A stretch of DNA of 6,365 bases, from the IMG/VR virus record IMGVR_UViG_2529292979_000027. One strand, given 5' to 3'. The stretch comes from a virus. Lineage: Duplodnaviria > Heunggongvirae > Uroviricota > Caudoviricetes. Numbering within the stretch: the first letter of the stretch is position 1; the number at the start of each line of letters is the position of its first letter. Position numbers: made by a program. Shown here piece after piece: positions 1 through 3,000 of this stretch.

Positions 1-3000
1 ATGCGCGAAATAAATGAAGATCGTGTAATCCGCGAAAAAGAATGCAGAGAGCTAACAGGCGTTTGCCGCACAACTCGTTACGAGATGGAAAAGCAGGGCC
101 GCTTCCCCTCACGTATCAGTCTCGGCGGTCGTTCTGTTGGCTGGGTTAAGTCTGAGGTTATGGAATGGGTTAAAAGCAGAAATCGTATTAATTCAGGTAA
201 GGCAGCGTAGGGGGAACATATGACACATAAAACAAAGGCGACCTGTGGCGGTCGCCAATGGGAAAACACTAAACATAAGCCCGAACATCATAGCGATTTG
301 CTGTCTGGTGGGCAATGTGCTCAGTGTGCTGGCTTGCTGGTGGGCTATTCCTGCTCTTTGGCCTTGCGGCGCTGGCGGCGTTTGATTTCGCCTTTAACGG
401 CAGTAACTATAAATTGCGCTTTGCTTTCACCTTCATCTAAATTTTTTTCTAAGTCTGCAACAACATCATGAGGGAATCTGGCATTTAACTGTTGCGACTT
501 ATTATTTGTTGAACCTGTTGCCATTACTGAATCCTCTCTAAGTTGGTGCGATTCAGTATACACAAAAAAAATTCAGAGAAAAGGCTTGAAGTGCGATTCA
601 CTTGCTGATAGGTTAAAAACAGATGGTGCGATGCACCAAATAACAACGCCCCGCAGTGGTGGCACACATGCAGGGCGTCTAACAACCAACGATAGCAACA
701 GTATCGAGGTAGCTATGTTAAATCATACCACACACCCGCAAGGGCGGGACTCGCACAACCTGAATAAATACATCTGGCGTTTTATCGCCCTGAGTACGGC
801 ACAACCGCGCGTGATTACCATTGAGGCCACCAGCGAACAGGAAGCACGCCAGCAATCCCCGGCTGGCTGCGTGATGGTATTCGCCGCCCGTATTCGTCAG
901 GGGGTGTGCCGTGCTTAAAACCTTCCGCGTTTTTTCCCGTGCTGTTAACAAGCGCGGCTATACCGTTGGCATCACGCAGAACGTGAAGGCCGTTAATATG
1001 CAAGCGGCGATTGATTCAGTAATCAGTAATTCCGGTAAAGCAGGTTTATCACATGTAATTATTGCAGCAGTACATGAATTAAAAGGGGGGCATTAATGAA
1101 GGAAATTACATTACACGAAGCCGCTGAACGTGCGCACCAGACAGAAATTATTTGCCGACTTCTTGAGGTGTACCCTAATAAATTAAATGATGGTGATATA
1201 TCCGCATTAGCTGGCCTTCTGGCAAAACTTTCTGGAAGTGTTGCGCTGTGGTTAATTGATGAGAGATTTAAACGCTATGAACAATAACAAACGCGTAATT
1301 TGCGAATTGAATGAACTCACACAAAGCGCAATATCTTACAACAATGCCGTAAGTGAGATTATTAACGTCTGGTTTGAATCGCTGACAAATTGCGAGCGTG
1401 ACGAGTCAACGACAAGATTAACCTTTGCCATTTCTGAATTACTGAATATTTCCACCAGCAAAATAGAGAGCATATCAGAGAAGATTAACGGCTTATCAGG
1501 TCACGCTATCGGAGAATAAAAATAATGAAACTTAAATATTCTGGCTTAACTGCCAGCGGCAAAACTCGCACTAAATTCATGTGCGGGGATATTTACCGCG
1601 ATAAGTACGGCGGCACGGTAATGATTAAGGGCGTGGAGGAACGGCGCGTAACTTACCGCCGTGAAGGCTACGAATATGATTGCGTTATGCCTGTTTATCA
1701 GTTCAACCGTGATTTTTCTCTGGTACAGGCAGCGCCCCGCAGTAAGCCAACCAGCAGGGAGAAAGCACGCGCCAATATTCAGGAAATAAAAAAGATGCTT
1801 AACGTATTCAGGGGTAAAAAATGAAACTGGCACCGAACGTAAAAAAACAGCCACGCGGAATAAAACACAAAGACACAGAGGTGATTATTTTCGCGGGTAG
1901 TGATGCGTGGGCACATGCAAAACAGTGGCAGGAGCAGGACGGCCCCGCATCCGGCGATAATGTGCCTCCTGTGTGGCTTGGGCCAAATCAGCTTGCCGAA
2001 CTTTATGCACTGCAAATTGTTCCTGATGGAAAAAAACGCGTAAGGCTGTACCAGGCAGGAGAACTGGACTTGGTGGAGACCAAAAAGATTGGTCAGAAGC
2101 TGGCGGCGGCAGGCGTACAGGATGCAAAATTTTACCCCGAAGGAATGCACGGTCAGAAGGTGGAGAACTGGCGCGAATATCTGGCCCGTGAGCGCCAGAA
2201 TCTTTCTGAAGGTCTGGTCGTTGAGCTTCCGGTAAAGCAAAAGGCGCAACTTTCGCAGATGGCGGACAGTGAACGCGCACAGATGCTTGCTGGTCGATTT
2301 GATGGCGTTTGTGTGCATCCGGAAAGTGAAATCGTTCACGTATGGCGCGGCGGGGTATGGTGTCCGGTCAGCACAATGGAACTTAGCCGCGAAATGGTGG
2401 CGATCTATTCAGAGCACAGGGCCACTTTCAGCAAACGCGTGATCAATAACGCCGTTGAAGCGTTAAAAGTTATTGCCGAACCAATGGGGGAGCCGTCCGG
2501 CGATTTGCTGCCGTTCGCCAATGGTGCGCTTGACCTGAAAACGGGGGAATTTTCCCCGCACACGCCGGAGAACTGGATCACCACGCACAACGGCATTGAG
2601 TACACGCCACCAGCACCAGGGGAGAACATTCGCGACAACGCGCCAAACTTTCATAAATGGCTTGAGCACGCAGCCGGAAAAGACCCGCGCAAGATGATGC
2701 GTATATGTGCCGCGCTGTACATGATTATGGCGAACCGGTACGACTGGCAGATGTTTATTGAGGCCACCGGAGACGGCGGGAGCGGTAAAAGTACATTCAC
2801 ACACATAGCCAGCCTTCTGGCAGGGAAACAGAACACCGTAAGCGCGGAGATGACATCACTCGATGATGCAGGAGGGCGCGCGCAGGTTGTCGGGAGTCGT
2901 CTTATCGTCCTGGCTGACCAGCCGAAATATACAGGCGAAGGAACGGGCATCAAGAAAATCACGGGCGGCGACCCCGTGGAAATTAACCCGAAATATGAAA

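What the first reader, a model, noticed from the sequence alone, without database searches (positions are those of the whole stretch)
1096..1824. AT-rich block of three translationally coupled small ORFs feeding into the primase
The ORFs 1096..1287, 1259..1519 and 1525..1824 are markedly more AT-rich than the primase gene by eye. They are chained by overlapping or near-abutting stop/start codons: TAATG at 1094-1098, an overlap at 1259-1287, and ATGA at 1821-1824. None has a motif I recognise. In satellites this position, co-transcribed with the replication genes, is where helper-derepression or helper-interference factors are often found, so these are candidates for uncharacterised functions.
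Basis: partly seen in the sequence, partly recalled or inferred. Interest (0 to 1): 0.5.

Follow-up and report, generated by a model that had tools for sequence, protein, structure and literature searches.

The report
PICI early-operon genes including an RgdR homologue
The three small genes are real, conserved genes of a known E. coli phage satellite (a PICI); the last one is a close relative of the already described regulator RgdR, and its family always sits directly in front of the replication gene in both satellites and ordinary temperate phages.

Summary
The chain is longer than reported: Icd-like, orf61, orfA, orfB, orfC and pri follow one another without a gap larger than 5 nt. The window is an EcCICFT073-type Gram-negative PICI inserted between cspD and clpS.

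orfC (1525-1824) is not unknown. It is a DUF4222 protein, 94% identical to RgdR (ECs1581) of O157 island OI-51, which activates LEE1, represses motility and binds DNA non-specifically. orfA and orfB are 94% and 69% identical to ECs1579 and ECs1580, which have no known function. orfB models as a helical hairpin.

A DUF4222 gene overlapped the start of the replication-initiator gene in all 11 satellite loci (the window included) and all 10 temperate-phage loci examined. I did not find this synteny described in the papers I searched. It suggests a role tied to the replication module rather than to a helper phage.

There is no support for helper derepression or interference. Relatives of orfA and orfC occur in autonomous phages, and lambda interference by EcCICFT073 maps to rppA. 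orfA and orfB are absent from an E. albertii island. Interest is low to moderate.

The parts
1..210 (+). alpA (AlpA-family activator of the PICI cycle); context
   Evidence: Pfam Phage_AlpA E 7.9e-18. Its role in EcCICFT073 is described in PMC6092414.
345..563 (-). YlcI/YnfO-family small gene, divergent from the operon that holds the block; context
   Evidence: NCBIfam NF041551 E 2.3e-17. It has the same position in relatives.
715..918 (+). Icd-like gene, first cistron of the coupled chain
   Evidence: NCBIfam phage_ICD_like E 1.4e-19. It is 100% identical over 64 aa to the CFT073 copy.
911..1096 (+). orf61, second cistron (phrog_3672, function unknown); its stop overlaps the orfA start (TAATG)
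   Evidence: PHROG E 6.6e-27. 66% identical to ECs1578. dN/dS about 0.25. It is a pseudogene in near-identical islands.
1096..1287 (+). orfA, 63 aa, mildly acidic (pI 5.6), function unknown
   Evidence: phrog_1478 E 6e-34. 94% identical to ECs1579 and 53% to CFT073 C_RS06960. 52.5% identical to a gene in the early operon downstream of the cI-like repressor of Klebsiella temperate phages. dN/dS 0.25-0.31 between divergent copies.
1277..1519 (+). orfB, 80 aa (alternative start at 1259), acidic (pI 4.7), predicted helical hairpin, function unknown
   Evidence: phrog_5796 E 1e-36. 69% identical to ECs1580. AF2 mean pLDDT 89.6 with helices 2-35 and 43-76; no specific fold match. Profile hits (E about 1e-6) to the ORF immediately upstream of rgdR in L004, L007, L009 and L010. 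dN/dS 0.23-0.28.
1525..1824 (+). orfC, an rgdR allele: 99 aa, DUF4222, basic (pI 10.05), CGD instead of RGD at residues 20-22
   Evidence: Pfam PF13973 85.7 bits against a cut-off of 27. 94% identical to RgdR/ECs1581 and 85% to c1493. dN/dS 0.15-0.34. AF2 pLDDT 74: small beta-sheet followed by two helices.
1821..3575 (+). pri-rep (D5_N, DUF5906/SF3 helicase, Pox_D5); its start overlaps the orfC stop (ATGA)
   Evidence: Pfam and PHROG matches. 93% identical to EcCICFT073 Pri.
3583..3819 (.). iteron-type replication origin (CCTCTACC / GGTAGAGG, about 10 copies in both orientations)
   Evidence: the repeat finder. This is the position expected for a PICI ori, 3' of pri-rep (PMC6092414).

Best explanation
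The block is the distal part of the early (replication) operon of an EcCICFT073-type Gram-negative PICI. The order is Icd-like, orf61, orfA, orfB, rgdR (orfC), pri-rep, ori.

orfC is an allele of rgdR. It encodes a small, very basic DUF4222 protein whose characterised orthologue binds DNA non-specifically and alters host transcription (LEE1 up, motility down).

A DUF4222 cistron overlapped the start codon of the replication-initiator gene in every satellite and temperate-phage locus examined. From this I infer that its primary role is in the replication/early module. It is made in fixed proportion with the initiator through translational coupling. It probably acts on DNA, or on a shared host nucleoid or replication factor, to help the origin or early genes fire. 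On this reading the virulence-gene effects seen in EHEC are a by-product.

orfA and orfB are small acidic helical proteins and are accessory, exchangeable members of the same operon. They most likely bind and modulate a protein target in the host (early 'take-over' functions) and are not core life-cycle genes.

Shown here: gene identity, coupling, selection, synteny. Inferred: the link to replication and the mode of action.
For: Identity:
- The window is 96-98% identical over about 100% of its length to islands between cspD and clpS carrying int, alpA, pri, terS and a capsid gene.
- Pri is 93% identical to EcCICFT073 Pri.
- orfC: Pfam DUF4222 E 1.5e-24; 94% identical to ECs1581.
- Sakai OI-51 has the same chain of 186, 192, 243 and 300 nt in front of its replication gene.

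Real genes: dN/dS 0.15-0.34.

Synteny of DUF4222 with the initiator:
- 11 of 11 PICI loci (window, L001-L004, L007-L011, L023) have DUF4222 overlapping the rep start.
- The rep proteins carry three different helicase modules: D5_N/SF3, DUF927 and RepA AAA_25.
- In an evenly spread sample of 1130 E. coli genome hits, all 37 rows that covered orfC listed a replication protein at the 3' edge of the match.
- 10 of 10 temperate-phage loci (Shigella SfIV; four Escherichia phages; Serratia, Klebsiella, Yersinia and Edwardsiella phages; and EKP1, deposited as an Elizabethkingia phage) show cI, cro, (cII-like), DUF4222, then the next gene, with a 4-11 nt overlap. That next gene matches HTH_36 and/or Phg_2220_C in 9 of the 10: 8 scanned directly, one by equivalence to SfIV. 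The CharmingMan protein gave no Pfam match.
- The rgdR/rep junction GGGG(T/C)AA(A/G)AAATGAAAC is conserved at the DNA level across rep types.
- One library protein reads from DUF4222 into a primase zinc ribbon.

Biochemistry and phenotype of the orthologue: PMC3378721.

orfA and orfB are accessory: they are mosaic, absent from E. albertii L011, and substituted in CFT073-type islands. An orfA relative lies in the early operon of Klebsiella temperate phages.
Against: - No experiment links RgdR, orfA or orfB to PICI replication or transfer. Published EcCICFT073 mutants cover int, alpA, pri-rep, c1499, c1500 and rppA only.
- The three PICI rep types share a homologous N-terminal domain of about 125-165 aa (41-82% identity). 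Within PICIs the synteny could therefore reflect a co-inherited 'rgdR plus rep N-domain' unit and not function. Only the phage O-like partners are truly unrelated.
- Tight linkage at a recombination junction can persist without a functional link.
- The model is of moderate confidence only (pLDDT 74).
- Deleting rgdR in EHEC changes LEE expression without satellite induction, so the gene is expressed, and has effects, outside the replication context.
Confidence: 0.55

Rival explanations
1. One reading: the three ORFs are satellite factors that derepress the helper prophage (like P4 epsilon) or interfere with helper reproduction.
For: In P4 the helper derepressor epsilon lies upstream of the alpha primase gene in the same operon (my own knowledge). 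The ORFs are small, unannotated and co-oriented with pri. The genes between alpA and pri of EcCICFT073 were never tested one by one. No phage relative of orfB was found, so it could be satellite-specific.
Against: - Deleting rppA alone fully restored lambda plaque formation on EcCICFT073, which carries orfA-like, orfB-like and rgdR genes.
- Gram-negative PICIs are induced by helper-driven alpA activation.
- DUF4222 and orfA relatives sit in autonomous temperate phages.
- No tblastn hit at significant E-values in any record of the phage collection; with the core peptide at E <= 10 only temperate-phage DUF4222 genes came up.
- No match to any PADLOC defence model.
Confidence: 0.1
2. orfC/RgdR is purely a host-benefit accessory ('moron') regulator of virulence and motility carried by the island. 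It has no role in the satellite's own cycle, and its position next to pri is incidental.
For: Deleting ecs1581 lowers LEE1 expression and T3S, and deleting OI-51 reduces sheep colonisation. The CFT073 orthologue complements. The PICI literature lists RgdR among the accessory virulence genes.
Against: - The family occurs in strains and genera without a LEE (UPEC, commensals, and Serratia, Yersinia, Klebsiella and Edwardsiella phages).
- It lies inside the replication operon, overlapping the rep start codon, and not in the accessory regions at the island ends.
- Residue 20 varies across the family (R, C, N, P, H, K), whereas the GD and the beta-core are invariant.
- This window's allele has CGD, as does the inactive ED1a variant, although it keeps K35.
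Confidence: 0.2
3. RgdR/DUF4222 works by antagonising H-NS-type silencing of AT-rich DNA. This would open the satellite's or phage's own AT-rich early region and origin, and would derepress H-NS targets in the host as a side effect. This is a mechanistic sub-hypothesis of the best explanation.
For: The reported phenotypes are LEE1 activation, loss of motility, increased Congo-red binding and non-specific DNA binding. They resemble what is known for hns loss in E. coli (my own knowledge: H-NS silences the LEE and curli genes and is needed for flhDC expression). Flockhart et al. note a short similarity to the linker of Ler, an H-NS paralogue. The neighbouring orfA/orfB DNA is about 60% AT.
Against: No direct evidence. 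No sequence or fold similarity to known H-NS antagonists. The argument rests on phenotypic resemblance alone.
Confidence: 0.15
4. The ORFs are chance open frames or decaying remnants with no function.
For: They are short and have no annotation beyond 'hypothetical'. The neighbouring orf61 is a pseudogene in near-identical islands.
Against: dN/dS 0.15-0.34 at dS up to 0.8. Lengths are conserved across hundreds of genomes. The orfB model is confident. RgdR activity has been shown experimentally.
Confidence: 0.01

Closest known systems
RgdR (ECs1581) of E. coli O157:H7 O-island 51 / prophage Sp7 / CP-933C, and its neighbours ECs1578-ECs1580 (Flockhart et al. 2012, PMC3378721)
   Same: The gene chain and lengths are the same (186, 192, 243, 300 nt) in front of the replication gene. 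Identities: orfC 94%, orfA 94%, orfB 69%, orf61 66%.
   Different: The window allele has C20 (CGD), A10, K27, R45 and N61. The downstream rep carries a D5/SF3 helicase module instead of DUF927. The island sits at cspD-clpS and has a different packaging module.
EcCICFT073, the prototype Gram-negative PICI (Fillol-Salom 2018 and 2019)
   Same: AlpA, YlcI/YnfO, Icd-like, small ORFs, rgdR (c1493, 85% identical), Pri (93% identical), iteron ori.
   Different: CFT073 has four small ORFs between Icd and rgdR. Only the first (53% to orfA) and the last (29% to orfB, E 1e-5) are related to those here, and it has no orf61. The window's terS-like and capsid-like genes have no tblastn match (E <= 1e-3) in the EcCICFT073 locus or the other five satellite loci compared; whether the window carries an rppA equivalent was not tested.
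DUF4222 genes of lambdoid temperate phages (SfIV, e14, mEp390, Serratia BZS1, Yersinia YeP2 and others)
   Same: The same Pfam domain, and the same position immediately 5' of, and overlapping, the replication-initiator gene.
   Different: The phage proteins are 59-73 aa and lack both the N-terminal K-x-SGLTASG segment and the C-terminal basic helix. They are about 39-43% identical in the core. Their partner is an HTH_36/Phg_2220_C O-like initiator.
Leader-cistron translational coupling of plasmid rep genes (IncFII tap, IncB/IncI repY); analogy only, from my own knowledge
   Same: A short upstream cistron whose stop overlaps the rep start, so that rep translation depends on translation of the upstream cistron.
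   Different: Plasmid leader peptides are about 24-30 aa and their sequence is not conserved as a protein. DUF4222 is a folded, conserved domain under purifying selection. No RNA structure sequesters the pri RBS (fold z-score +0.83).
P4 epsilon / orf151 region upstream of the alpha primase
   Same: Small ORFs in a satellite, co-transcribed with a primase-helicase gene.
   Different: No tblastn hit for orfB or full-length orfC anywhere in the phage collection, and orfA hit only Klebsiella temperate phages; whether P4 itself is in that collection was not checked. PICIs differ from P4 in organisation and induction logic.

Membership tests
RgdR / DUF4222 family (orfC) | Pfam PF13973 match above the gathering score | tested here: met
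   85.7 bits against a cut-off of 27, E 1.5e-24, residues 18-68.
RgdR / DUF4222 family (orfC) | Full-length (99 aa) similarity to ECs1581; the paper reports orthologues at >77% | tested here: met
   93.9% identity over 99 of 99 residues.
RgdR / DUF4222 family (orfC) | RGD tripeptide at residues 20-22, the motif that gave the name | tested here: not met
   The window has CGD, like ED1a ECED1_1787. However, ECs1581 R20C remained active, and residue 20 varies across the family. The motif therefore names the protein rather than defining the family.
RgdR / DUF4222 family (orfC) | Located in a P4-like/PICI island directly upstream of the replication gene | tested here: met
   ATGA overlap with pri at 1821-1824. 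The arrangement is the same in OI-51 and CFT073.
RgdR / DUF4222 family (orfC) | Activates LEE1/T3S, represses motility, binds DNA non-specifically | not testable with these tools
   Needs expression in EHEC or UPEC and EMSA. The combination C20 + K35 in an A10/K27/R45/N61 background was not among the variants tested in PMC3378721.
Gram-negative PICI (the island) | alpA activator, pri-rep and an iteron ori 3' of pri-rep | tested here: met
Gram-negative PICI (the island) | Integrase at one end, dedicated att site, small size, no lysis or tail genes | tested here: met
   Seen in near-identical islands L001, L002 and L023: int next to cspD/yljB, about 9.4 kb, ending before clpS, no lysis or tail genes. 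The integrase lies outside the window itself.
Gram-negative PICI (the island) | Induction and high-frequency transfer by a helper phage | not testable with these tools
   Experimental.
P4 epsilon-type helper derepressor / known PICI interference proteins (RppA, Ppi, Cpm, Pti) | Sequence similarity to a known member | tested here: not met
   No Pfam, NCBIfam or PADLOC match of that kind. PHROG matches are all to families of unknown function. No tblastn hit outside temperate-phage early regions.
Anti-phage defence system component | Match to a PADLOC model | tested here: not met
   No family matched any of the small ORFs at E <= 1.

The most novel reading that the evidence does not exclude
DUF4222/RgdR is a general, so far unrecognised cofactor of the replication module of temperate enterobacterial phages and their PICI satellites. 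It would be a small DNA-binding protein made by translational coupling with the initiator and acting on the origin or on a host nucleoid factor such as H-NS. The EHEC 'virulence regulator' activity would then be a side effect. A related possibility is that the unannotated DUF4222 ORF hidden inside ymfM of prophage e14 contributes to phenotypes now credited to YmfM.
Probability: 0.3. Interest if true: 0.55.

Novelty: new member of a known kind. Interest (0 to 1): 0.3.

Why it matters
As a finding it mostly closes a question. The block is the ordinary early operon of a known satellite family, and one of its 'unknown' ORFs is a published regulator.

The part worth keeping is the comparative result. 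The RgdR family is tied to the start codon of replication-initiator genes in both satellites and autonomous phages. This recasts a protein known only as a virulence regulator as a probable replication-module or early-module factor. It also gives a simple genetic test: a non-polar rgdR mutant assayed for PICI replication and transfer.

The same result exposes a mis-annotated or overlapping gene in the E. coli K-12 prophage e14.

Tried and rejected
- Rfam scan of the whole window, looking for a C4-like antisense RNA ahead of the Icd-like gene: only a chance snoRNA hit at E 0.78.
- Sequence search of solved structures with profiles of orfA, orfB and orfC: nothing below E about 1.
- Foldseek (PDB) with the orfB model: only generic helical hairpins, no E <= 0.001.
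- The afdb50 library was unavailable.
- The genome-contig scan with the RgdR alignment returned only 2 loci, because the derived peptide patterns were too specific. It could not be used to survey other genera.
- tblastn of full-length orfC and orfB against phages: no hits. Only the DUF4222 core peptide at a relaxed E-value found the phage relatives.
- Weak partial hits of that core to Rha/antirepressor-type proteins (E 0.1-1) were treated as chance.
- RNA fold of the orfC/pri junction: no structure hiding the pri RBS, z = +0.83.
- I first counted the three PICI rep types as non-homologous partners. BLAST showed that they share an N-terminal domain, so that argument was weakened.
- EcCIMP1 (PMC11773190) was read as a possible relative, but its regulator is a PerC-family protein and is not related to this block.
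Full report
**1. What is in the sequence**

The window carries, on the + strand:
- an AlpA gene (1-210);
- an Icd-like gene (715-918);
- orf61 (911-1096);
- orfA (1096-1287);
- orfB (1277 or 1259 to 1519);
- orfC (1525-1824);
- a 584-aa D5_N/SF3 'primase' (1821-3575);
- an iteron field (3583-3819);
- three small ORFs, a TerS-like gene and a capsid-like gene.

A YlcI/YnfO-family gene lies on the minus strand at 345-563.

The same style of overlap continues upstream (GTG 911 / TAA 916-918), so five small cistrons, not three, run into pri.

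GC content is 40.1% (orfA), 38.7% (orfB), 46.7% (orfC) and 53.1% (pri), with a window mean of 47.8%. No promoter-like or convincing terminator-like site interrupts the chain.

The better start for orfB is ATG 1277. RefSeq uses the equivalent start in every relative seen. Most homologues are 80 aa. The distant CFT073 relative aligns to within about 3 residues of that start.

**2. The ORFs are real genes**

I compared the window with islands that differ by dS 0.1-0.9. dN/dS was 0.23-0.28 for orf61, 0.25-0.31 for orfA, 0.23-0.28 for orfB and 0.15-0.34 for orfC. Each ORF matches a PHROG family of unknown function at E 1e-27 to 1e-37.

**3. What the element is**

The window is 96-98% identical over its whole length to an island of about 9.4 kb between cspD/yljB and clpS in O157:H7, O103, O121 and other E. 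coli. That island starts with a tyrosine integrase and has no lysis or tail genes. The block itself is 100% identical in strain 2014C-3061.

Pri is 93% identical, and the Icd-like protein 100% identical over 64 aa, to those of EcCICFT073, the prototype Gram-negative PICI. In that system AlpA is the helper-dependent activator of the island genes, and lambda interference maps to rppA downstream of the ori (PMC6092414 and PMC6739421).

**4. orfC is an rgdR allele**

orfC matches Pfam DUF4222 at 85.7 bits. It is 94% identical to ECs1581 (RgdR) of O157 Sakai island OI-51/Sp7 and 85% identical to c1493 of CFT073.

What is published about RgdR (PMC3378721):
- It is 99 aa with a pI of about 10.
- It activates the LEE1 promoter and type III secretion.
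- It represses motility and increases Congo-red binding.
- It binds DNA without sequence specificity.

[quoted passage not shown] Its role in the satellite's own cycle has not been tested in any paper I could find.

The window allele has C20 (CGD), A10, K27, K35, R45 and N61. The inactive ED1a variant also has C20, but together with N35. ECs1581 R20C alone stayed active. Activity of this allele therefore cannot be predicted from sequence.

Across 31 family members residue 20 is R, C, N, P, H or K, whereas G21, D22 and the beta-core are invariant.

**5. orfA and orfB**

orfA is 94% identical to ECs1579 and orfB 69% identical to ECs1580. Sakai OI-51 has the same chain of 186, 192, 243 and 300 nt.

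In CFT073-type islands four small ORFs lie between Icd and rgdR. The first is orfA-like (53% identity). The last is orfB-like (29%, E 1e-5). Profile searches confirm an orfB-like ORF immediately upstream of rgdR in L004, L007, L009 and L010. An E. albertii island has neither orfA nor orfB.

orfA relatives (52.5% identity) lie in the early operon downstream of the cI-like repressor of Klebsiella temperate phages. No phage relative of orfB was found.

orfA is mildly acidic and orfB acidic (pI 5.6 and 4.7). orfB models confidently (pLDDT 89.6) as a two-helix hairpin, which has only generic structural neighbours. No Pfam, NCBIfam, PADLOC or PDB sequence match was found for either. In the OI-51 study, deletions across the complementing 5-kb fragment that also holds the homologues of both genes pointed to the region containing ecs1581 as required for T3S activation.

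**6. The comparative result**

Megablast of the block shows a mosaic. The whole block occurs in 152 of 5426 complete E. coli genomes. The orfC segment (window 1510-1824) occurs in about 1100 genomes, with breakpoints at the gene borders.

In all 11 PICI loci inspected, the window included, DUF4222 overlaps the start of the replication gene. That gene carries a D5_N/SF3, DUF927 or RepA-type AAA_25 helicase module. The junction GGGG(T/C)AA(A/G)AAATGAAAC is conserved at the DNA level.

One caveat applies. The three rep types share a homologous N-terminal domain of about 125-165 aa (41-82% identity). Within PICIs the unit that is conserved is therefore 'rgdR plus rep N-domain'.

The DUF4222 core also detects genes in temperate phages. 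The ten loci opened were Shigella phage SfIV; Escherichia phages 720R4, 733R5, mEp390 and CharmingMan; and Serratia, Klebsiella, Yersinia, Edwardsiella and 'Elizabethkingia' phages. All ten show the order cI, cro, (cII-like), DUF4222, next gene, with overlaps of 4-11 nt.

That next gene matches HTH_36 and/or Phg_2220_C in eight loci scanned directly and in a ninth by equivalence to SfIV. The CharmingMan protein gave no Pfam match.

The family is small: 76 clusters at 50% identity among 1.84 billion representative proteins, nearly all of them 110 aa or shorter. One 179-aa member reads from DUF4222 into a primase zinc ribbon. It looks like a read-through of adjacent genes.

**7. Structure**

AF2 gives orfC a five-strand beta unit (residues 8-54) followed by two helices (57-69, 77-98), at pLDDT 74. 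There is no significant structural neighbour.

**8. Interpretation**

The identity of the block is secure: it is the distal early operon of a PICI, with an rgdR allele as the last cistron before pri.

The mechanism is an inference. DUF4222 is coupled to initiator genes in satellites and in autonomous phages whose initiators are unrelated. This argues for a role in the replication or early module that does not depend on a helper phage or on the LEE. The non-specific DNA binding and the pleiotropic host effects fit a nucleoid-level action. H-NS antagonism is one concrete possibility, but it rests only on phenotypic resemblance.

orfA and orfB behave as exchangeable accessory early genes. The helper-derepression or interference reading has no support, although orfB has not been excluded experimentally.

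**9. Verdict**

The finding is a new member of a known kind and of low to moderate interest. A testable side result is the obligate DUF4222-initiator linkage, together with an unannotated DUF4222 ORF inside ymfM of e14.

Noticed in passing
L022 4502-4681 (= NC_000913.3 1204001-1204180); also L012 3438-3659 and L014 3480-3659: In prophage e14 of E. coli K-12 and in SfIV-type phages, an unannotated DUF4222 ORF (Pfam E 3e-19) lies in another frame inside the 3' half of ymfM ('cell division inhibitor YmfM') and overlaps the start of the O-like gene. In the overlap the DUF4222 frame is 86-100% conserved against 46-92% for the YmfM frame. A text search of the ymfM filamentation preprint found that the annotated ORF was cloned and found no mention of start or stop codons or truncations, that is, no sign of frame-specific controls.
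   Followed up: partly
window 1821-2310 (Pri residues 1-163); L003 4016-, L007 6312-, L011 5285-: PICI replication proteins with three different helicase modules (D5_N/SF3, DUF927, RepA AAA_25) share a homologous N-terminal domain of about 125-165 aa (41-82% identity; phrog_2850, function unknown). The first 8 or so codons and the rgdR/rep junction are conserved at the DNA level, which suggests module swapping downstream of a fixed 'rgdR plus N-domain' unit.
   Followed up: partly
window 911-1096; L001 9894-10067; L023 6815-6988: orf61 is intact in the window but annotated as a truncated pseudogene in near-identical islands of strains CV261 and 2014C-3061, so it is dispensable there.
   Followed up: partly
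window 3583-3819: Dense iteron field (CCTCTACC(C) / GGGTAGAGG, about 10 copies in both orientations) directly 3' of pri: the expected PICI-type origin.
   Followed up: yes
window 4791-6365: The TerS-like gene (only its first 55-57 residues match Pfam Terminase_2) and the 307-aa capsid-like gene have no tblastn similarity to the EcCICFT073 or OI-51 packaging genes. In relatives the island ends right after the capsid-like gene, an unusually minimal packaging module.
   Followed up: partly
window 345-918: A divergent pair, YlcI/YnfO-family gene (minus strand) and Icd-like gene (plus strand), heads the operon in seven of the 11 PICI loci seen: the window, its three near-identical islands, CFT073, PE164 and the prophage-embedded island L009. 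The annotated OI-51-type islands (L003, L008) list no YlcI/YnfO gene, and L010 and L011 carry no annotation. No Rfam C4-type antisense RNA was detected there.
   Followed up: partly
L009 (NZ_CP070066.1 3576448-3586596): A related PICI sits inside a prophage major-capsid gene (a helper-embedded configuration), and its pri gene is interrupted by an IS66 element.
   Followed up: no
P0240 (179 aa, from the representative library): This protein starts as an RgdR-type DUF4222 and continues into the N-terminal zinc ribbon of a primase-helicase, then becomes garbled. It is probably a frameshifted read-through of adjacent genes, and it again shows the DUF4222-primase adjacency.
   Followed up: partly
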